A stretch of DNA of 7,330 bases. Origin: a virus. Taxonomy: Duplodnaviria > Heunggongvirae > Uroviricota > Caudoviricetes. The stretch is from IMG/VR virus record IMGVR_UViG_2609459769_000015. One strand, given 5' to 3'. The translations under genes were made by a program, and so were the position numbers. Of the stretch, positions 1 through 7,330 are shown piece by piece. Each line of letters opens with the position of its first letter. Position 1 is the first letter of the stretch. A model generated the notes under the pieces. It did no database searches. It saw only the letters and a list, made by a program, of their open reading frames with translations, and had not been told where the DNA came from.

Positions 1-183
1 ATGACATTTTTACAGCTTATTTTATTGTATTTCTGCACGGCAGTATGTGCGTTATATCTGGTGAGTGGTGGTTATAAGGCCATCAGAAATTATGTTCGCC
101 GCAAAATTGAGGACGCAGCAGCTGAAAAACTCAGTAAAACAGCGCAGGTAACTCCGCTCCCAAAAGACCCGACCCAGCCCTGA
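1..183 (+). CDS. Hypothetical small membrane protein (60 aa): N-terminal hydrophobic helix FLQLILLYFCTAVCALYLV followed by a charged tail
   Basis: ORF begins with ATG at window position 1 (its promoter/RBS, or an upstream extension, would lie outside the window); stop TGA 181-183; 36 bp upstream of the next gene on the same strand. Confidence 0.35.
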   Translation: MTFLQLILLYFCTAVCALYLVSGGYKAIRNYVRRKIEDAAAEKLSKTAQVTPLPKDPTQP

Positions 184-218
184 TTGCAGGGCTTTATTCC
201 CGCATAAGGAGGATATAC

Positions 219-473
219 ATGCCAGAAATTAAAGGCACCGTCACTGAAGACCTGGTAAAACAGGCACTGTATTCCGGTGAAGTAAATAAGTTGCTGAAAG
301 CGCAGGTCCGCAAGGATTTTGAGGCACAAATCGACACTTACGTTGATGAAGTGCTGGCAAAACTTATTGGGCCAGCAGTTGCGGCCAGTGATGCTGATAA
401 TGAGCCGAAAACCGACGCGCAGCCAGAGCAACCAGACCCGGCTCAGCCCGGAACTGACAGTACCATGATGTAA
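219..473 (+). CDS. Hypothetical acidic protein (84 aa) with Pro/Gln/Asp-rich C-terminal tail
   Basis: ATG at 219 preceded by strong Shine-Dalgarno AAGGAGG (205-211); natural-looking composition; stable hairpin immediately after the stop. Confidence 0.5.
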   Translation: MPEIKGTVTEDLVKQALYSGEVNKLLKAQVRKDFEAQIDTYVDEVLAKLIGPAVAASDADNEPKTDAQPEQPDPAQPGTDSTMM

Positions 474-478
474 CAATA

Positions 479-506
479 CAAACCGGTGGTGTCCTCTGCC
501 GGTTTG
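479..506. terminator. Hairpin (8-bp stem CAAACCGG / CCGGTTTG, 12-nt loop) just after the 219..473 stop; possible terminator between convergent genes
   Basis: Perfect inverted repeat at 479-486 / 499-506; no clean U-tract on the plus strand, modest T-rich run on the minus-strand side. Confidence 0.3.
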
Positions 507-530
507 ACACTAATGAAAACATCTTTGCCG

Positions 531-572
531 CTATCCAGCCATATGTAATCGCTGGATAGTATTTCGTATTCA
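531..572 (+). terminator. Hairpin (9-bp stem CTATCCAGC / GCTGGATAG, 11-nt loop) followed by a T-rich tract TATTTCGTATTC; candidate intrinsic terminator
   Basis: Perfect inverted repeat 531-539 / 551-559 followed by T-rich sequence 560-572. Confidence 0.3.
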
Positions 573-640
573 GAAATATAGCTGCTTATGGAGCAGTCAA
601 TCCTGCTTCCCCATCCGGGCAGGCAAATGAACCGGTATCA

Positions 641-934
641 TTAGTCCGATTCACGCTTTTGTAGAATCGTTCCCAGAATGCTATACAGCTCATTAGCCTG
701 TTGCTCCATCATTGAGACGGAGGCTATACGGTGCAAAGTGATTTCAGGAGGTGGCACACCTCCATCTTCTTGCTGTGGAGGAAAAACATAAGATTTAATA
801 AAAAAGTTGAAGCATATGAACTCTCCCGCACTCGAACTGTATTTGCAGGCATCTGAATAATCGGAAAAATAATCATTATAGATTTCCGCATTTTCAATCA
901 TTTTTCGATTTCTCGTCGTTACATGATTGTCCAT
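641..934 (-). CDS. Hypothetical protein (97 aa), divergently oriented from com-mom
   Basis: ATG (reverse complement of 932-934) preceded by Shine-Dalgarno AAGAGG with 5-nt spacer; no family recognised by eye. Confidence 0.5.
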   Translation of the reverse strand: MDNHVTTRNRKMIENAEIYNDYFSDYSDACKYSSSAGEFICFNFFIKSYVFPPQQEDGGVPPPEITLHRIASVSMMEQQANELYSILGTILQKRESD

Positions 935-1057
935 AGCAGCCTCTTACGCTGGCAATTAACCAATTGACTTCTATAAATTAGTTGATTTGTTTGCTTTGCG
1001 GTATTCAAATGTACAATCATTCAGCACTTATGCGTTACAGCACCGTTTAAAATTAGT

Positions 1058-1147
1058 GATCAAACTCATAAATTTTCGCTAATGACATTTCGTGTTATTT
1101 GTTGTATCAATTAAATAAATCAAATCGATCGTTTTTGTCGATCGATT
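1058..1147. promoter_or_regulatory. com-mom upstream control region: three GATC (Dam) sites at 1058, 1127 and 1140, the latter two inside a perfect 9-bp inverted repeat AATCGATCG-N7-CGATCGATT (1123-1147)
   Basis: Read directly from sequence; AT-rich 250-bp intergenic region between divergent genes; candidate -35 ATGACA (1082-1087) and -10 TATCAA (1105-1110) are weak. Confidence 0.5.
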
Positions 1148-1190
1148 GAGTGATAAAGATATCAACAACAAAGCAGGAGGTTATGCGGCC

Positions 1191-1391
1191 ATGTATCGAA
1201 ACATACGGTGCCGACATTGTAACAAGCTACTGGCACGAGCCAGCTTCAGTTATCTGGAAGTTAAATGTCCGCGCTGTAAAACCCTCAATCAAATCACATC
1301 TCAGAGCGCCACAGAGCACCCCACATACACAAGGAAATCCTGTCGTGGGGAACAGAAAGCAAGTTACATCCCGTATCATCAGCACGCCTGA
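1191..1391 (+). CDS. com: Com-like zinc-finger translational activator (66 aa), Mu Com family
   Basis: ATG 1191 preceded by AGGAGG (1175-1180); Cys4 pattern CRHC...CPRC ([30 protein letters not shown]) closely resembles phage Mu Com; 3' end overlaps the start of the mom-like ORF as in Mu. Confidence 0.85.
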
Positions 1392-2082
1392 ACTTATTCA
1401 CTATAACGACAATATCGTCGGTTATGGCTCCCGTGAGTTACGGGTTGAGACAATAAGTTGCTGGCTGGCCCGGCTGGTCGTCGTCAATAAACATTACAGC
1501 CATCGTTTCGTAAATAATTCCTACCTTCATCTGGGCATATTTTCAGAACGGGAGCTGGTTGGCGTAATGCAATGGGGTTATGCCCTTAATCCAAACAATG
1601 GTGCACGCGTCGTAACTGGCACGCAGAACCGCGAATATATGGAGCTTAACCGGTTATGGCTGCATGACTGTATGCCGAGAAACTCCGAATCAAGGGCAAT
1701 CAGTTACGCGCTCAAACTAATCAGACAACTTTATCCGCAGGTGCAGTGGGTTCAGTCGTTTGCAGATGAGCGTTGTGGCTGTCTTGGTGTCGTGTACCAG
1801 GCAAGCAATTTTGATTATGTAGGCAGTCATGAAACAACATTCTATGAACTTGATGGCGAGTGGTATCACGAGATTTGCAAGAATGCAATCAAACGAGGAG
1901 GACAGCGAGGTGAACATCTGCGGGCTAATATCGACAGAGCCAGTGTTCATAAATTCCGTCAGTTTCGTTACATCCGGTTTCTGGACAAGAGAGCCAGAAA
2001 ACGCCTTAACACAAAGCTATTCAAAGTCCAGCCTTACCCAAAACCACAAACAGTTAAAACTGGTTTGAAAGAGAGTGAATGA
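1345..2082 (+). CDS. mom: Mom-like DNA modification protein (acyltransferase-fold adenine-modifying enzyme), about 245 aa if initiated at GTG 1345
   Basis: Long ORF overlapping com out of frame; motifs KHYSH, NSESR, SFAD recalled from Mu Mom; candidate start GTG 1345 with AAGGAAA (1331-1337) upstream; start position is uncertain (the ORF is open from 1150). Confidence 0.75.
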
Positions 2083-2117
2083 ACGCTTAAAAACTCATTC
2101 TAAAACTCAAAAGAAAA

Positions 2118-2158
2118 GCGCCGATTTAGTATCAAATAAGTTGCGTATCGGCGTTTTT
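2118..2158. terminator. Candidate bidirectional intrinsic terminator between convergent mom and dam: stem CGCCGAT / ATCGGCG (2119-2125 / 2147-2153), T5 on plus strand, T-rich run on minus strand
   Basis: Inverted repeat with 21-nt loop, followed by TTTTT (2154-2158) and preceded by AAAAGAAAA (2109-2117) which gives a U-tract for the opposite strand; the loop is long, hence moderate confidence. Confidence 0.4.
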
Positions 2159-2193
2159 CAGCGGTATCAAATGAAATGCAAATCGGTATCAAA
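2128..2193. repeat. Three direct copies of GTATCAAA (2129, 2164, 2186), two within an exact 10-bp repeat CGGTATCAAA (2162-2171 and 2184-2193, 22 bp apart)
   Basis: Read directly from sequence in the mom-dam intergenic region; function unknown. Confidence 0.4.
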
Positions 2194-2244
2194 AAAATCG
2201 CCGCGCTATATTAAAGCCGCTGCAGTTGTTCATATCAGCATGGC

Positions 2245-3102
2245 TCATGCACGCACTCCGTACACGGCAGAACTATCCACGCCACGCGAAGGATCAAATC
2301 CCACCCAGCAGCGCGCCCCAGAAACAGCGATGATTTCTGTTGCAGATTTACTCTCGCCAGCCGACACGCCGATGCTGCGTTTTGCCTTGATGTAGTGGTG
2401 AGTGAAATTTCGATACAGCGAACGGATCAGGGATGTGTCACTGTTAGAAACAATGACTGGATGACCTTCTGATGATCGATATTCAAGAACAGATGCCAGG
2501 TGATACTGGTCATCTTCAGTGAAGCCGTTAGTGTGATAGCCGGAAAACGTACCGTCATAAGGCGGATCGCAATACACCACATCCCCCACCTGCAGCATCG
2601 CCAGCGTTTCATCAAAGCTGGCGCAGATAAACGTTGCTTGCTGGGCTTTCTCTGCAAATGCGCGAATTTCTTTTTCAGGGAAATACGGATTTTTATAATT
2701 ACCGTATGGAATGTTGAAATGCCCGCTCTTGTTATAACGACATAACCCACGGTAACCATGACGATTGAGATACAGGAAATATACCGCTTTCATGAAATCA
2801 GTAATTTCAGTGGAGTAATTAAACTCCTGCCTTATGTTGTAATAAGCCAACTCCCTGTTTGCTTCCTCAAATAAAGCTCTGGCACGAGATATAAACGCCT
2901 CGCAATCAGCAGCAACCTTTTTATAGAGGTTGATTAAATCAGGATTAATATCCGCAACAAGATAGCTGGGGTAATCCGTCTCCATCATCACAGCACAGGA
3001 ACCCGCGAAAGGTTCAACCAGTCGCGGGCCAGCAGGAAGGTGTTTTTTCAGTTCGGACATTACGGCGGTTTTATTTCCCGCCCATTTCAGGATGGTGCTC
3101 AT
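2245..3102 (-). CDS. dam: DNA adenine methyltransferase, Dam family (D12-class N6-adenine MTase), 285 aa
   Basis: Strong resemblance to E. coli Dam along the length: [15 protein letters not shown] (AdoMet motif), [15 protein letters not shown], catalytic DPPY; start ATG at 3100-3102 overlaps the upstream stop in an ATGA junction. Confidence 0.9.
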
Positions 3103-3326
3103 ACAGCACCCCCGTTGTAATGTTTGCCTTTCAGCTCTGCGATTTCCTGACAGGTAATGCAAAGCTGCACACCCGGAATGGCACGGCGGCGTGCTGGCGG
3201 AATTGGCGCTTCACACTCAACGCAAAGCACGCGGGACACGCCCGGCGTTTTGGCACGGGCAGCACGGATATGGCGCTGGCGTTCTTCTTCAACGCGCTGC
3301 TGTACGAGATCCATTGCATCAGCCAT
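3099..3326 (-). CDS. TraR/DksA-family C4 zinc-finger protein (75 aa)
   Basis: CVEC...(17 aa)...CITC four-cysteine motif and size typical of phage TraR-like proteins; start overlaps the upstream gene stop (TAATG). Confidence 0.8.
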   Translation of the reverse strand: MADAMDLVQQRVEEERQRHIRAARAKTPGVSRVLCVECEAPIPPARRRAIPGVQLCITCQEIAELKGKHYNGGAV

Positions 3327-3559
3327 TAGTGGATCTCCTGCGCTTCGTTCTGGATTGCTTCAGCAGTCACACGCAGCAGTTCTGCCGCTTCCACGTGGTT
3401 TAGCTGACGGGATGAGATATGACACGCCAGGCTATCAAGGCGAGCTGCCATTGCTTCAGCCCTTGCCCGGCGTTCTTCCAGACGAGCCTCTGTCAGTAAA
3501 ATATTAAGCCCTGCGTCATCCGGTCCGGTTTTAGTCGTGAGGGTTTCAATATTACGCAT
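3326..3559 (-). CDS. Hypothetical early protein (77 aa), Ala/Arg/Glu-rich helical
   Basis: ATG (reverse complement of 3557-3559) preceded by AGGAG with 8-nt spacer; translationally coupled to the TraR-like gene; resembles small conserved proteins of P2-like early operons. Confidence 0.6.
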   Translation of the reverse strand: MRNIETLTTKTGPDDAGLNILLTEARLEERRARAEAMAARLDSLACHISSRQLNHVEAAELLRVTAEAIQNEAQEIH

Positions 3560-3626
3560 AATCAATTCTCCTGAATTTAGATAAAGGGATGCCCGGCGGG
3601 TTTACGCCATTAATTTCATTAGTTGG

Positions 3627-3968
3627 TTAATTCGGCATGGTTAGCCGTCTGGGAAATAAGCTCACCACTGCACGAAAATGATTCATTGCTTTAATCAGCT
3701 CCCGCTTTTCGTCAGTGGTCAGCTCATTAATGCTGATGCTATGACGTTCAGCTGGAATTTTTGCCATAAAGAATATGGCAGCCAGTGCCCGTTTATTTTG
3801 TTCATTATTGATATCCCGTGGATCACGCATATCTTTAATAAACCGCTCAAGCTCTGACTCAATATTCAGGCCAAAAACTTTCGCCCTTAACTCCGCAATG
3901 TGATTAAGTCCATTCAGGCGTTCACCGGGGCTTAATGGAACAGTTGCTGCAGCGCCATTAATTGCCAT
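3627..3968 (-). CDS. Hypothetical early protein (113 aa)
   Basis: ATG (reverse complement of 3966-3968) with G-rich RBS; ordinary protein-like composition; no family recognised by eye. Confidence 0.55.
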   Translation of the reverse strand: MAINGAAATVPLSPGERLNGLNHIAELRAKVFGLNIESELERFIKDMRDPRDINNEQNKRALAAIFFMAKIPAERHSISINELTTDEKRELIKAMNHFRAVVSLFPRRLTMPN

Positions 3969-3990
3969 ACTTCATATCCCCCAAACGCAG

Positions 3991-4215
3991 CTATCGTTCT
4001 TTGTTCTTACGGTAACGCTCAAGAGGAGATACATTTTTTCGTATCGTCTCTTTAACCTGCTCTCCCCGTAAAAACGTCCCATCCTTTAACGCGAAAAAGT
4101 AACTGCCATCGCCCGACAATGACGGATAGCAACAGAGCAAATCATCTTCAGGTACTGAATAACTCTCCCCTCTGTAACGAAACTGATAAACCACTTCACT
4201 TTCTGCCGCATACAT
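3991..4215 (-). CDS. Hypothetical early protein (74 aa)
   Basis: ATG (reverse complement of 4213-4215) preceded by GGAGAAAG; natural-looking sequence; overlaps the 3' extension of the upstream ORF in another frame. Confidence 0.6.
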   Translation of the reverse strand: MYAAESEVVYQFRYRGESYSVPEDDLLCCYPSLSGDGSYFFALKDGTFLRGEQVKETIRKNVSPLERYRKNKER

Positions 4216-4382
4216 TTGGACTTTCTCCGTTTCCTCGTGGTCAATTCAGACAGCAATTCATCTTGTGAATGACATGGATGCCAGCGTTTTCCATCCTCAC
4301 CCGTGATCCAGCCGTGACCGTAGTGCATTGCCGGGCTTTGTTTTACCAGCAGCGATGCAAATGATGGTTCTTTCGTCAGCAT
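4086..4382 (-). CDS. Hypothetical early protein downstream of cII (position of 186 fil); 98 aa as it stands, but the last ~42 aa look like out-of-frame read-through
   Basis: ATG (reverse complement of 4380-4382) preceded by GAGGTG; N-terminal 56 aa look protein-like, C-terminal part (Cys/Arg/Trp-rich) overlaps the 3991..4215 gene for 130 nt. Confidence 0.4.
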   Translation of the reverse strand: MLTKEPSFASLLVKQSPAMHYGHGWITGEDGKRWHPCHSQDELLSELTTRKRRKSKCMRQKVKWFISFVTEGRVIQYLKMICSVAIRHCRAMAVTFSR

Positions 4383-4389
4383 AAGCACC

Positions 4390-4899
4390 TCACAGCAAAC
4401 CGAATGAAGCACCGAGGCCAGTCACGGTATCAACTGCACTCGCCATCGCAGGGTTAGCCTGTAAACGGGCCTGCAATGAAACAGCAGCCAACGCCATCAG
4501 TCGTGTTACAGAGTTAATGCTGCTGATAGCATCACGACGACCTGCACTGGTTTTTACATCGCCAGATACCGCACCTGCAGCAACACGCCCGATCTCTGCG
4601 GTTGCACTCATGACGTAATGTGGCAGTTTCTCTTTTGCCACCTCATTAATTGGTACGCATGGCAGGCAGTGAATCTGTGCCAGAAAACCATCTACCAACG
4701 TTGAATCTTCAGTCAGATCGGTAAGCAGCCAGATTTCTGGTGCGGTTAATAAATGAGGTTGAGCTGGGTTCAGCTTGTTCCGCAGAATCTGCACATTCAT
4801 GCCCGCACGTTCTGCCAGTTGCACCAGATTGTGGCGCAGTGCGAATGCACGACAGGCTTCATCAAAATGTGGATGTTTGGAAACTTGGTAATCAAACAT
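4390..4899 (-). CDS. cII: Phage 186-type CII lysogeny-establishment activator (169 aa)
   Basis: Sequence [19 protein letters not shown]...[28 protein letters not shown] closely matches what I recall of phage 186 CII; ATG at 4897-4899 (reverse) is preferred over the TTG at 4906-4908 given by the ORF track. Confidence 0.85.
4873..4899. promoter_or_regulatory. Candidate CII operator: inverted 7-bp half-sites ATGTTTG (4873-4879) and CAAACAT (4893-4899), 20 bp centre-to-centre, overlapping the cII start codon; implies a rightward CII-dependent establishment promoter reading antisense through apl toward cI
   Basis: Half-sites read directly; the sequence and two-helical-turn spacing match my recollection of the 186 CII binding site at pE; weak -10-like ACTTAT at 4915-4920. 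Confidence 0.5.
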
Positions 4900-4963
4900 G
4901 GTTTTCAACTCCGAACTTATCGCAAAATCGAACTCAGCGTCTTATTGCGAAAATAGACGTCTA

Positions 4964-5167
4964 TTAAGCAGACAAAGCATCAACAGTCAGAGCAGCCAGG
5001 TTAATCATTACCTTTTCACGTTTTTTGTCTTTACGAAGACGATGACGAGGTAGTCGGCCATCAGCCAACATGTCGTTAATCGTATCAATAGAAAGGCCAG
5101 TCAGTTCGCTATAACGTTCGATTGTGACATGTGGTGTATTCAGAGTAATTGAAATGTTAGGTGTCAT
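4964..5167 (-). CDS. apl: Apl/Cox-family excisionase and transcriptional regulator (67 aa), first gene of the lytic operon
   Basis: HTH segment [25 protein letters not shown] resembles P2 Cox / 186 Apl; position immediately opposite cI across the switch region. Confidence 0.65.
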
Positions 5168-5312
5168 AAGGCAACATTCCTTCTAGATATGGCTTGTGGC
5201 GAGCCGTTGTTTGTCGTGATTAGTAGTGAAGGCTCCAAAAGAACACTTCTGGTTCAACTTTAAGATCGCTTTTGGAATCTGTCAACGAATTTTGGATTTC
5301 TTTGGAGGACTT
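5168..5312. promoter_or_regulatory. Lysis-lysogeny switch region. Candidate leftward lytic promoter (pR-like): -35 TTGACA (minus strand, 5280-5285), 17-bp spacer, -10 TAAAGT (5257-5262). Weaker candidate rightward promoter (pL-like): -35 GTGTCA 5161-5166, -10 TAGATA 5184-5189
   Basis: Hexamers read from sequence; face-to-face arrangement is that known for 186/P2; helically phased TTTGGA repeats at 5271, 5291, 5301 and TGTGGA at 5311 overlap the -35. Confidence 0.45.
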
Positions 5313-5882
5313 GTGGATTTCAATAGCGGCGGTAAGAAAGCCATAGAACGTTTAGTTGAAGCATATGGGTTCGGTACCCGTCAGGCTCTCTGTGATCATT
5401 TAGGTGTTTCTAAGAGCACCATGGCAACGCGCTATATGCGTGATATTTTTCCAGCAGATTGGGTAATCCAGTGCGCCCTTGAAACGGGCACCTCGCTTAA
5501 TTGGCTAACAACAGGGCATGGTTCAAAGCAAGCATCAGCAAATACAAATACTATAGAAGTAGAAAAATATTTATTGTCTGATGGAGCATTGCAGAAAGAC
5601 GGTTTTTATATTTTTGATAAGGGATTTCTACCCTCTACGTTTAAAAAACCTTTTGTCATCACAGATAACAATTCTGAATTTATTTGTGATAAAGAATTTG
5701 ATGATATACGTGATGGTAAATGGGTAATAAGTATTGATGGCGAAATAACGATCCGTGACATTACTCGTTTACCCGGTGGAAGAATCTTCGTCGAGGGTGG
5801 AAACAGAGCCTTCGAATGCAAGATAGAAGACATTGAAATAATTGGTAAAATTATAAGTTTAACAGTCAAGTATGTTAAATAG
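5313..5882 (+). CDS. cI: Phage 186-type CI immunity repressor (189 aa from GTG 5313; the ORF is open from GTG 5226)
   Basis: N-terminal HTH region ERLVEAYGF...CALETGTSLNWLTTGHG matches the 186 CI repressor family; GGAGG (5304-5308) precedes GTG 5313; the C-terminal half is AT-rich. Confidence 0.85.
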   Translation: MDFNSGGKKAIERLVEAYGFGTRQALCDHLGVSKSTMATRYMRDIFPADWVIQCALETGTSLNWLTTGHGSKQASANTNTIEVEKYLLSDGALQKDGFYIFDKGFLPSTFKKPFVITDNNSEFICDKEFDDIRDGKWVISIDGEITIRDITRLPGGRIFVEGGNRAFECKIEDIEIIGKIISLTVKYVK

Positions 5883-5897
5883 TACCGGGAGGAAACT

Positions 5898-6089
5898 ATG
5901 CTTGGTAAGGTATTTTTTGTGGTTTTGTCATGTTCTTTGTTATTAAACCCACTAACTACCTATGCTAGAAATTATCCCTGCTCAGGGAAAAAGGGAGGTG
6001 TTTCTCACTGTACCTCAGATGGCAAATTCGTTTGCAATGATGGAACTATTAGTAAATCCAAAAAAATCTGTACTAAAAACTCACGATAA
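5898..6089 (+). CDS. Small secreted Cys-rich protein (63 aa): signal peptide then a ~40-aa basic mature peptide with 4 Cys; moron between cI and int
   Basis: ATG 5898 with strong GGGAGG RBS (5-nt spacer) 16 bp after the cI stop; hydrophobic N-terminus [18 protein letters not shown]; AT-rich relative to flanks. Confidence 0.6.
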
Positions 6090-6224
6090 CTTTTGCTTTT
6101 ATATCTGCGTCTAAAATAAAAATGAGCCGCAGGTTAACCGCAAAAGTTACATGCTCACATAGCAAAAAGAATAGCCAACTTCATGATGGCTTCAGTGAGA
6201 TGTATGGTCGTAGGATTTCATACA

Positions 6225-6253
6225 TTGACACTGGTTATACATACAGTAAAAAT
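6225..6253 (+). promoter_or_regulatory. Near-consensus sigma70 promoter upstream of int (-35 TTGACA 6225-6230; -10 TAAAAA/AAAAAT 6247-6253) whose spacer is a LexA-box-like palindrome CTGGTTATACATACAG (6231-6246)
   Basis: Read from sequence; 13 of 16 positions match the CTGT-N8-ACAG LexA consensus (CTGG half-site as in ruvA box), with a perfect ACAGTA distal half. Confidence 0.4.
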
Positions 6254-6277
6254 GCTCTCTACTGGAGGGCATTTTTT

Positions 6278-7330
6278 ATGGCAGTACGAAAACTCACCAC
6301 AGGGAAATGGCTTTGCGAATGTTACCCCGCCGGACGTAGTGGGCGTCGTGTGCGTAAACAATTCGCCACCAAAGGCGAAGCTCTGGCTTTTGAGCGCCAC
6401 ACGATGGAAGAAACCGAAGCAAAGCCCTGGCTGGGTGAATCAGTGGATCGTCGAACACTGAAAGACGTAGTTGAGCTATGGTTCAAACTACATGGTAAAT
6501 CTCTGACAGCTGGGCAGCATGTCTATGACAAATTGCTGTTGATGGTTGACGCTCTGGGTAATCCTCTTGCAACCGATCTCACCTCTAAAATGTTTGCCCA
6601 CTATCGAGATAAACGCCTGACAGGCGAGATCTACTTCAGCGAGAAATGGAAGAAAGGAGCAAGCCCGGTCACCATTAACCTGGAGCAAAGCTATCTAAGT
6701 AGTGTTTTTAGCGAACTATCCCGTCTGGGCGAATGGTCGTATCCGAACCCACTGGAGAACATGCGAAAATTCACCATCGCAGAAAAAGAGATGGCATGGC
6801 TTACCCATGAGCAGATTGTTGAATTGCTGGCTGATTGCAAACGTCAGGACCCAATTCTGGCACTGGTAGTTAAGATATGCTTAAGCACAGGCGCACGCTG
6901 GCGTGAAGCCGTAAATCTTACCCGCTCACAGGTGACCAAATACCGAATTACCTTTGTCAGAACGAAGGGGAAGAAAAACAGAAGCATCCCTATCAGTAAA
7001 GAGCTTTACGAAGAGATCATGGCGCTTGATGGGTTCAATTTCTTTACAGACTACTATTTTCAATTTTTATCCGTGATGGAAAAAACGTCTATCGTGCTCC
7101 CTCGCGGTCAACTCACACACGTTCTGCGCCATACGTTTGCGGCGCACTTCATGATGTCGGGTGGAAACATTCTCGCCTTACAAAAAATTCTCGGACACCA
7201 CGATATAAAAATGACTATGCGTTACGCACATCTGGCACCAGATCATCTGGAAACGGCGCTCCGTTTCAATCCTCTGGCAACGCTGCCAAGTGGCGACAAA
7301 GTGGCGGCAGCGGTTGGCATTACCCCGTAA
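6278..7330 (+). CDS. int: Tyrosine site-specific integrase, P2/186 family (350 aa)
   Basis: N-terminus MAVRKLTTGKW...RKQFATKGEALAFERHT parallels P2 Int; catalytic region LSTGARWREA, HVLRHTFAAHF, MRYAHL with active-site Tyr; ATG 6278 preceded by GGAGGG (6265-6270); stop is the last codon of the window. Confidence 0.9.
   Translation: MAVRKLTTGKWLCECYPAGRSGRRVRKQFATKGEALAFERHTMEETEAKPWLGESVDRRTLKDVVELWFKLHGKSLTAGQHVYDKLLLMVDALGNPLATDLTSKMFAHYRDKRLTGEIYFSEKWKKGASPVTINLEQSYLSSVFSELSRLGEWSYPNPLENMRKFTIAEKEMAWLTHEQIVELLADCKRQDPILALVVKICLSTGARWREAVNLTRSQVTKYRITFVRTKGKKNRSIPISKELYEEIMALDGFNFFTDYYFQFLSVMEKTSIVLPRGQLTHVLRHTFAAHFMMSGGNILALQKILGHHDIKMTMRYAHLAPDHLETALRFNPLATLPSGDKVAAAVGITP

What the first reader, a model, noticed from the sequence alone, without database searches (positions are those of the whole stretch)
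2109..2193. Bidirectional terminator plus GTATCAAA direct repeats in the mom-dam convergence zone
The hairpin at 2119-2153 is flanked by T-runs on both strands, as expected for a terminator serving convergent transcripts. Overlapping and following it are three copies of GTATCAAA, two as an exact 10-bp repeat spaced 22 bp (two helical turns). Such phased repeats could be protein-binding sites (iteron-like) rather than chance, which is intriguing given that no replication gene or origin is visible in this window.
Basis: seen in the sequence. Interest (0 to 1): 0.4.

Follow-up and report, generated by a model that had tools for sequence, protein, structure and literature searches.

The report
Transposase-binding repeats at Mu-like prophage end
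The repeats and hairpin sit in the last 100 bases of a Mu-like transposable prophage that has jumped into the replication gene of a P2/186-like prophage, so the GTATCAAA repeats are the ordinary binding sites for the Mu-type transposase at the element's right end, not replication iterons.

Summary
GTATCAAA occurs three times (2129, 2164, 2186) and nowhere else in the window, and a 13-bp inverted repeat (2113-2125/2147-2159) encloses the first copy.

The context was misread. The window is a chimera:
- 1-2210 is the right arm of an Sp18-type Mu-like prophage (com, mom), 99.96% identical to E. coli copies.
- 2211-7330 is 100% identical to a 186/P2-like prophage, whose gpA replication gene is cut after codon 12.

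So mom and dam converge only by accident of insertion.

The repeats lie 18, 40 and 75 nt from the element's terminus (...CGCCGCGCTATA). The same motif occurs inverted, 18, 113 and 165 nt from the left end. This mirrors Mu's R1-R2-R3 and L1-gap-L2-L3 layout, including the 22-bp R1-R2 spacing.

Motif, spacing and terminus are kept in Edwardsiella and Sodalis relatives while the spacers diverge. Complete elements encode MuA- and MuB-family proteins.

The repeats are therefore the right-end transposase-binding sites. The hairpin is most likely the mom terminator and is not positionally conserved.

This is already known in kind: six putative sites were reported for Sp18. Low interest. One side note: these elements mostly show 4-bp, not 5-bp, target duplications.

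The parts
1191..1391 (+). com, the translational activator of mom, in the Mu-like prophage
   Evidence: Pfam Zn_ribbon_Com, E 7.5e-13. Annotated as a Com family protein in identical E. coli prophages.
1345..2082 (+). mom, the last gene of the Mu-like prophage
   Evidence: Pfam Mom, E 7.8e-78. 72% DNA identity to Mu mom, which also ends about 115 bp from Mu's right end.
2113..2159 (+). Hairpin (arms 2113-2125 and 2147-2159, 21-nt loop) followed by a T-run; putative intrinsic terminator of com-mom, weaker on the opposite strand
   Evidence: -21.6 kcal/mol on +, -13.3 on -. Kept in the 85%-identical LC727881 variant, replaced by a differently placed tight hairpin in Edwardsiella, absent in Sodalis.
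2126..2144 (-). R3-like transposase-binding site (core GTATCAAA 2129-2136), inside the hairpin loop
   Evidence: Core lies 75-82 nt from the terminus. Core and position are invariant in the Edwardsiella, Sodalis and LC727881 right ends.
2161..2179 (-). R2-like transposase-binding site (core GTATCAAA 2164-2171)
   Evidence: Core lies 40-47 nt from the terminus, 22 bp from R1, the same spacing as Mu R1-R2.
2183..2201 (-). R1-like transposase-binding site (core GTATCAAA 2186-2193)
   Evidence: Core lies 18-25 nt from the terminus, the same distance as the L1 core from the left terminus in Sakai Sp18 and strain M3.
2199..2210 (+). Conserved right terminus CGCCGCGCTATA; the last base of the Mu-like element (the cleavage and joining point) is 2210
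   Evidence: Homology to more than 1250 E. coli genomes stops here, with unrelated flanks beyond. The same terminus is found in Edwardsiella and Sodalis.
2211..2214 (.). TTAA: first bases of the target (gpA), presumed copy of the target-site duplication
   Evidence: Inferred from 4-bp duplications in 6 of 7 insertions where both ends were read. The other junction of this insertion is outside the window.
2211..2248 (-). Remnant of gpA (P2/186-type replication endonuclease): start codon plus 38 nt, cut by the insertion
   Evidence: Uninterrupted prophages that are 100% identical over 5120 bp continue ...GCGGCTTTAA|CGAGG into an 804-aa GPA protein. See also vB_EcoM-813R9.
2245..3102 (-). dam-type DNA adenine methylase of the 186/P2-like prophage (not part of the Mu-like element)
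   Evidence: PF02086. The exact protein is found in many E. coli P2-like prophages, directly upstream of an intact gpA.

Best explanation
Window 2109-2210 is the right end (attR) of an Sp18-type Mu-like transposable prophage. This copy has inserted into codon 13 of gpA in a resident 186/P2-like prophage.

The three GTATCAAA copies read inward from the terminus as ~19-bp sites with consensus G.AAAtyATTTGATACCrA, whose cores lie at nt 18, 40 and 75. They are the binding sites for the element's MuA-family transposase. Protomers bound at R1 and R2 (and at L1 on the other end) would pair the two ends into a transpososome. That complex nicks after the terminal ...CTATA-3' (2210) and joins it to target DNA. 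This is both how the phage integrates and how it replicates.

Shown here:
- terminal position of the repeats;
- the same motif in mirror image at the left end;
- conservation of motif, spacing and terminus across genera;
- MuA- and MuB-family genes in complete copies.

Inferred: actual binding by the transposase, and the relative roles of the three sites.

The hairpin around R3 is a separate feature. It is most likely the Rho-independent terminator of the com-mom operon. It may also stop transcription reading in from whatever gene the phage lands in, here the dam-gpA early operon of the P2-like prophage.
For: 1. The window is a chimera.
- Window 1-2210 is 99.96% identical and colinear with the right arms of complete Mu-like prophages in E. 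coli.
- Window 2211-7330 is 100.000% identical over 5120 bp to uninterrupted 186/P2-like prophages, in which gpA continues.

2. The element is mobile.
- 1254 of 5426 E. coli genomes match up to about 2210.
- Beyond that point their flanks diverge into unrelated genes (sorM, citF, flgL, cheB, rhs and others).

3. The motif is mirrored at the other end.
- TTTGATAC lies at nt 18, 113 and 165 of the left end, and its complement at nt 18, 40 and 75 from the right end.
- Only one further copy, a chance-level count, occurs in 38-39 kb of element.

4. The layout matches Mu.
- The Mu site cores lie at R 22, 44 and (inverted) 57, and at L 22, 127 and 167.
- So the R1-R2 spacing is the same 22 bp, and there is the same long L1-L2 spacer (PMC3145075).

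5. The sites are conserved across genera.
- Edwardsiella, Sodalis and Symbiopectobacterium right ends keep all three cores, the 35- and 22-bp spacings and the CGCGCTATA terminus, with no indels, while the spacers diverge.
- Other Mom-carrying Mu-likes keep the 22-bp spacing but use different motifs.

6. Complete copies carry the transposition machinery.
- They encode a transposase with Mu-transpos_C and HTH_Tnp_Mu_1 domains. It aligns end to end with MuA at 22% identity, E 5e-11.
- They also encode a MuB-type ATPase.

7. Literature.
- Sp18 is listed among prophages with six putative transposase-binding sites (PMC2628397).

8. The hairpin.
- Stability is -21.6 kcal/mol, z = -4.8, followed by UUUUUC.
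- It is stronger on the mom strand than on the opposite strand.
Against: - No binding or transposition experiment exists for this motif, so the assignment rests on position, symmetry and conservation.
- The sites do not match the MuA consensus.
- R3 is in direct orientation, whereas Mu R3 is inverted.
- The right terminus ends in TA, not CA.
- Target duplications are 4 bp in 6 of 7 cases rather than Mu's 5 bp. The transpososome may therefore differ in detail from Mu's.
- The transposase and the left end of this particular copy are outside the window, so whether this copy is intact is unknown.
- For the hairpin, the 21-nt loop is atypical for an intrinsic terminator, and the structure is not positionally conserved in relatives.
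Confidence: 0.93

Rival explanations
1. The repeats are iterons of a replication origin, bound by a Rep-type initiator of a replicon hidden in or near the window.
For: Two copies are an exact 10-mer spaced 22 bp apart, i.e. in helical phase. In a loose sense the ends of a transposable phage do act as its replication start sites.
Against: - No Rep gene is adjacent. The only replication gene, gpA, belongs to the other element, is truncated, and is a rolling-circle nickase with no iterons here.
- The motif sits at a fixed distance from a mobile-element terminus.
- It recurs in inverted orientation at the other terminus, 38-39 kb away. That is the signature of transposon ends, not of an origin.
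Confidence: 0.02
2. The repeats are bound by some protein other than the transposase. Candidates are the phage repressor or Ner-type regulator, a host factor such as IHF, HU or OxyR, or the packaging machinery.
For: No biochemical data identify the binding protein. In Mu, host HU acts at the ends, and the repressor shares a DNA-binding domain with MuA for the operator/enhancer (PMC3145075).
Against: - The arrangement is three sites per end in inverted orientation, with the first core exactly 18 nt from each terminus.
- The 22-bp R1-R2 spacing is kept across lineages even where the motif changes.
- These features are what end recognition by the transposase predicts.
- From established knowledge, Mu packaging starts at the left end only and the operators lie internal to the c gene.
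Confidence: 0.04
3. The whole 2109-2193 segment is simply a bidirectional terminator module, and the repeats are incidental parts of its RNA structure.
For: A stable hairpin with flanking A-runs and T-runs on both strands.
Against: - Two of the three repeats lie outside the hairpin.
- The repeats are conserved in relatives where the hairpin is moved (Edwardsiella) or absent (Sodalis).
- The same motif occurs at the left end, where no mom transcript ends.
- No Rfam family matches.
Confidence: 0.01

Closest known systems
Bacteriophage Mu attR (MuA-binding sites R1, R2, R3) and attL (L1, L2, L3)
   Same: - Three sites per end, just beyond the last gene (mom) on the right.
- R1 and R2 are adjacent with 22-bp core spacing.
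- L1 is separated from L2-L3 by a spacer of about 100 bp.
- The first site is at the same distance from both termini.
- The element encodes MuA- and MuB-family proteins (PMC3145075).
   Different: - The recognition sequence is unrelated (ATTTGATACC core versus Mu's ...CGAAA).
- The transposase is only 22% identical to MuA.
- R3 is direct rather than inverted.
- The right terminus is TA, not CA.
- Target duplications are mostly 4 bp rather than 5 bp.
Prophage Sp18 of E. coli O157:H7 Sakai and its relatives in about 23% of complete E. coli genomes
   Same: The last 128 bp of the element are essentially identical, including all three repeats, the hairpin and the terminus. Sp18 is described as an intact, packaged Mu-like phage (PMC2669165), and six putative transposase-binding sites are attributed to it (PMC2628397).
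   Different: Only the insertion site differs: here it is inside gpA of a 186/P2-like prophage. None of the 5426 complete E. coli genomes searched carries this junction.
Mu-like phage inserted in Stx-converting phages (LC727881, LC727895)
   Same: A Mu-like element of the same lineage nested inside another prophage. Same terminus and repeats, and a 4-bp duplication annotated by the depositors.
   Different: About 85% identity in the right arm; the host prophage is lambdoid rather than P2-like.
Plasmid and phage iterons
   Same: Short direct repeats in helical phase that bind a replication-related protein.
   Different: Iterons cluster at an origin next to their rep gene. These repeats are terminal, mirrored at the other end of a 39-kb element, and belong to a DDE-transposase system.

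Membership tests
Mu-type transposable-phage end (att site with transposase-binding repeats) | Lies at the extreme terminus of a mobile prophage; flanking DNA differs between genomes | tested here: met
   Homology stops at 2210. Flanks differ (sorM, citF, flgL, cheB, rhs, a diguanylate cyclase gene and others). The P2-like side is 100% identical to uninterrupted prophages.
Mu-type transposable-phage end (att site with transposase-binding repeats) | The same repeat at both ends in inverted orientation, several per end, with Mu-like spacing (R1-R2 adjacent, L1 set apart from L2-L3) | tested here: met
   Cores at 18, 40 and 75 nt (right) and 18, 113 and 165 nt (left); one chance-level internal copy in 39 kb. 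Mu comparison.
Mu-type transposable-phage end (att site with transposase-binding repeats) | The element encodes a MuA-family DDE transposase and a MuB-type ATPase | tested here: met
   Shown in complete relatives, not in the window: Mu-transpos_C, HTH_Tnp_Mu_1, weak rve, Phage-MuB_C plus AAA domains. Full-length alignment to MuA, E 5e-11.
Mu-type transposable-phage end (att site with transposase-binding repeats) | Sites conserved among diverged relatives while the spacers drift | tested here: met
   Edwardsiella, Sodalis and Symbiopectobacterium right ends.
Mu-type transposable-phage end (att site with transposase-binding repeats) | Transposase shown to bind the sites and to require them for transposition | not testable with these tools
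   Needs EMSA or footprinting and mini-element transposition assays.
Phage Mu proper (Muvirus) attR | Sites match the MuA consensus (...CGAAA core) | tested here: not met
   The core here is ATTTGATACC. No CGAAA-type sites are present. The transposase is 22% identical to MuA.
Phage Mu proper (Muvirus) attR | R3 inverted relative to R1 and R2 | tested here: not met
   All three right-end cores are in the same orientation. Mu R3 is inverted.
Phage Mu proper (Muvirus) attR | Termini 5'-TG...CA-3' and a 5-bp target duplication | tested here: not met
   Left end is TG (or TA), right end is ...TA. Duplication is 4 bp in 6 of 7 insertions and 5 bp in one. For this window's own insertion the duplication cannot be read.
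Iteron-type replication origin | Direct repeats next to a cognate rep gene and origin features (AT-rich region, DnaA boxes) | tested here: not met
   There is no rep gene of that kind. The adjacent gpA is a truncated rolling-circle nickase gene of a different element. The repeats are terminal and mirrored at the far end.
Intrinsic (Rho-independent) terminator, bidirectional | G+C-rich stem directly followed by a U-run; A-run upstream for function on the other strand | tested here: met
   GCGCCGAU/AUCGGCG(U) stem followed by UUUUUC, with AAAAGAAAAG upstream. Stability is -21.6 kcal/mol on + and -13.3 on -.
Intrinsic (Rho-independent) terminator, bidirectional | Short loop (3-8 nt) and a compact hairpin | tested here: not met
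   The loop is 21 nt, and the consensus scan does not call it.
Intrinsic (Rho-independent) terminator, bidirectional | Conserved in relatives; transcript 3' ends map there | tested here: inconclusive
   Hairpin kept in LC727881. A different, tight hairpin lies just upstream of R3 in Edwardsiella. None in Sodalis. No transcript data are available.

The most novel reading that the evidence does not exclude
Sp18-type Mu-like phages may assemble a transpososome with a geometry different from Mu's. The evidence is a 4-bp rather than 5-bp target stagger (6 of 7 insertions read), a TA-3' right terminus, all three right-end sites in direct orientation, and an unrelated recognition sequence read by a transposase only 22% identical to MuA. 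If so, they would be a natural variant for asking how Mu-type transposases set the target stagger. A more speculative extra: because R3 sits in the loop of the mom terminator hairpin, transcription or cruciform formation could modulate occupancy of R3.
Probability: 0.35. Interest if true: 0.4.

Novelty: already known. Interest (0 to 1): 0.18.

Why it matters
The main value is correct annotation.
- What looked like a designed mom-dam intergenic module with mysterious iterons is a junction between two nested prophages, plus the standard cis-acting end of a transposable phage.
- It explains the missing replication gene: gpA is cut after codon 12.
- It marks the P2-like prophage as very probably unable to replicate on its own. 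This rests on established knowledge that P2-family replication needs the A protein.
- It gives a precise end coordinate (2210) and a site consensus. These can be used to delimit Sp18-type prophages, which are present in about a quarter of complete E. coli genomes.
- The 4-bp duplications and the TA terminus are small, checkable departures from the Mu paradigm.

Tried and rejected
- The consensus terminator/promoter scan of 1900-2400 found nothing, because the loop is too long.
- The Rfam scan at E<=1 gave only chance-level hits.
- An exact search for the junction in IMG/VR viral contigs found no copy, and none of the 5426 complete E. coli genomes covers the junction. The source genome and the other junction of this insertion, and hence its own target duplication, were not recovered.
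- Looking up the exact Dam protein returned only uninterrupted prophages. That was useful as a reference but did not give the source.
- Morgan et al. 2002 (J Mol Biol 317:337) and Harshey's Mu review could not be read. The statement that six sites were described for Sp18 therefore rests on a secondary citation (PMC2628397), and I do not know whether the published sites are the ones mapped here.
- A literature search for 4-bp duplications by Mu-like phages found nothing relevant.
- A fourth site at 2146-2150 (GTATC in CGTATCGGCG) was considered and rejected. It is not conserved in Edwardsiella or Sodalis.
- A 5-bp duplication with shifted element boundaries was considered and rejected. Alternative boundaries fit only 1 or 2 of the 7 insertions.

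Full report
**1. Observation**

GTATCAAA occurs three times in the window, at 2129, 2164 and 2186, all on the + strand and nowhere else. The chance expectation is 0.27, and 0 of 200 shuffles reached three. The last two copies are the exact 10-mer CGGTATCAAA, 22 bp apart; the first lies 35 bp upstream.

A 13-bp inverted repeat (2113-2125 / 2147-2159, 92% complementary) encloses the first copy in a 21-nt loop. As + strand RNA it folds at -21.6 kcal/mol (z = -4.8) and is followed by UUUUUC. On the - strand it reaches only -13.3 kcal/mol. The simple terminator scan does not call it, because of the long loop. Rfam has nothing.

**2. The window is two elements joined at 2210|2211**

- A megablast of the window against phage genomes matched 186/P2-like phages only from 2211 onward.
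- A search of 1950-2350 against 5426 complete E. coli genomes matched 1254 genomes, but only up to about 2210. Beyond that the flanks are unrelated host genes: sorM, citF, flgL, cheB, ydcF and others.
- In O157 Sakai the match is the right end of 'prophage Sp18, Mu-like phage'.
- Window 1-2210 is 99.96% identical and colinear with the right arms (DUF1378, DUF826, com, mom) of complete Mu-like prophages.
- Window 2211-7330 is 100.000% identical over 5120 bp to uninterrupted 186/P2-like prophages beside rcdA/ybjJ. In those, dam is followed by an intact 804-aa gpA that overlaps its stop codon.
- The uninterrupted sequence reads ...GCGGCTTTAA|CGAGG. The window reads ...GCGGCTTTAA|TATAGCGCGG (gpA sense).

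So the Mu-like element ends at 2210, and gpA is cut 38 nt after its ATG. mom and dam therefore converge by accident. The 'missing' replication gene is the gene that was hit.

**3. What the repeats are**

*Position relative to the termini.* Reading inward from the right terminus, the TTTGATAC cores begin at nt 18, 40 and 75. In Sakai Sp18 and in strain M3 the left end (T[G/A]TAACCAGGTGAATCA-TTTGATACC...) carries the same core in the inward orientation at nt 18, 113 and 165.

*Distribution along the element.* In three complete elements of 38-39 kb, the 8-mer occurs three times at the left end, three times inverted at the right end, and once internally. One internal copy is the chance expectation.

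*Consensus.* Seventeen distinct sites give an approximately 19-bp consensus, G.AAAtyATTTGATACCrA.

*Comparison with Mu.* Mu, fetched for comparison, has its site cores at 22, 44 and (inverted) 57 on the right and at 22, 127 and 167 on the left. The R1-R2 spacing is therefore the same 22 bp. The long L1-L2 spacer, where HU binds in Mu, is also shared (PMC3145075).

*Conservation across genera.* Right ends found through Mom homologues in other genera keep all three cores, the exact 35- and 22-bp spacings and the CGCGCTATA terminus, without a single indel, while the spacers diverge. These are Edwardsiella anguillarum, Sodalis and Symbiopectobacterium. Decaying symbiont copies show point mutations in the cores. 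Other Mom-carrying Mu-likes keep the 22-bp spacing of two terminal repeats but use different motifs. That is the expected pattern if the repeat co-evolves with its transposase.

*Encoded machinery.* Complete Sp18-type elements encode a transposase with Mu-transpos_C and HTH_Tnp_Mu_1 domains and a weak rve core. It aligns over its full length to MuA at 22% identity (E 5e-11). They also encode a MuB-type AAA+ protein.

*Conclusion.* The repeats are the right-end transposase-binding sites, the R1, R2 and R3 analogues. Binding itself is inferred, not shown.

**4. Mechanism**

By analogy with Mu (PMC3145075; PMC5977238), transposase protomers on R1 and R2, and on L1 at the other end, synapse the two ends. 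They nick after the terminal base (2210) and join it to a staggered cut in the target. This serves integration after infection and replicative transposition during lytic growth. In Mu R3 is dispensable, and the same may hold here.

**5. The hairpin**

It is stronger in the mom sense than in the opposite sense. It is retained, with one strengthening and one weakening substitution, in the 85%-identical LC727881 variant. In Edwardsiella it is replaced by a tight 13-bp hairpin with a 4-nt loop placed just upstream of R3. It is absent in the degenerate Sodalis copy.

It is therefore independent of the repeats. I read it as the com-mom intrinsic terminator (confidence about 0.6). It may also block read-in transcription, which a randomly inserting phage must often face; here that would be the dam-gpA' transcript (about 0.3, inference only). 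R3 lying in its loop appears to be a matter of compaction.

**6. Comparison with the known, and novelty**

Sp18 is a described Mu-like prophage, judged intact, packaged and not circularised (PMC2669165). Its relatives occupy different sites in different strains (PMC7430833). Sp18 is listed with Mu, FluMu and Pnm1 as having six putative transposase-binding sites (PMC2628397, apparently citing Morgan et al. 2002, which I could not read). The last 128 bp of the element in the window are essentially identical to those of Sp18 and identical to those of the other E. coli copies read. Nested insertion of this phage lineage into other prophages is also on record (LC727881).

The feature is therefore already known in kind and, very probably, in detail.

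It fails membership of Mu proper on four tested points:
- the site sequence;
- the orientation of R3;
- the TA rather than CA right terminus;
- the length of the target duplication.

It meets every structural criterion of a Mu-type transposable-phage end.

**7. Side observation**

In seven insertions where I read both junctions, the duplication is 4 bp in six (TAAA, CATC, TTCG, CGCA, GTAT, TACG) and 5 bp in one (CCAAA). The depositors of LC727881 also annotated 4 bp. Shifting the element boundaries does not rescue 5 bp. Mu's 5-bp duplication is established knowledge. I found no paper that discusses this difference.

**8. Verdict**

The feature is ordinary and already known. Interest is low (0.18), with a modest residual interest in the 4-bp stagger and the TA terminus.

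Noticed in passing
L003:995-1000 with L001:3262-3266; L027, L028, L029, L030, L038; L006/L007: Sp18-type Mu-like prophages are flanked by 4-bp direct repeats in 6 of 7 insertions read (TAAA, CATC, TTCG, CGCA, GTAT, TACG) and by 5 bp in one (CCAAA). Mu makes 5 bp. The right terminus ends in TA, not CA. The left end is TGTAACC or TATAACC.
   Followed up: partly
window 2211-2248 (- strand): The 186/P2-like prophage's replication gene gpA is cut after codon 12 by the Mu-like insertion. Everything from dam to int (2245-7330) is 100% identical to uninterrupted prophages, so the insertion looks recent. The P2-like prophage is probably no longer able to replicate.
   Followed up: yes
window 1121-1147: Two GATC sites, each within a TCGATCG palindrome (1127-1130 and 1140-1143), lie just upstream of com. 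In Mu the mom promoter is controlled through Dam methylation of clustered GATCs. Here a second, prophage-borne dam gene lies 1 kb away on the other element.
   Followed up: no
L026:60-150; L008 and L012 downstream of mom: Other Mom-carrying Mu-like prophages end in GCGCTACA. They carry two terminal repeats of a different sequence (GGATCACTTTGTCTGC; GAACCGCTA) at the same 22-bp spacing. This suggests a conserved R1-R2 geometry with lineage-specific recognition.
   Followed up: partly
L020:3793-3914 and L010:3707-3829: Copies in insect-symbiont genomes (Symbiopectobacterium) carry single substitutions inside the cores (R1 GTGTCAAA; R2 GTATTAAA). This is consistent with decay of immobile prophages.
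   Followed up: no
L030:21645-21724 (also in L027, L028, L037, L038): RefSeq annotates an 80-nt 'tRNA-OTHER' inside the head-gene region of every complete Sp18-type prophage fetched. It lies outside the window.
   Followed up: no
window 641-934 (- strand): A 97-aa ORF between the DUF826 gene and com has no Pfam match. In the E. coli copies a shorter hypothetical gene (261 nt) is annotated on this strand at the same place. Its function is unknown.
   Followed up: no
window 5898-6089: A small ORF (63 aa, with a signal-peptide-like N-terminus) lies between the cI repressor and integrase of the P2-like prophage. It is recorded as PF27300 (YdcA) in identical prophages and looks like a moron-type insertion.
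   Followed up: no
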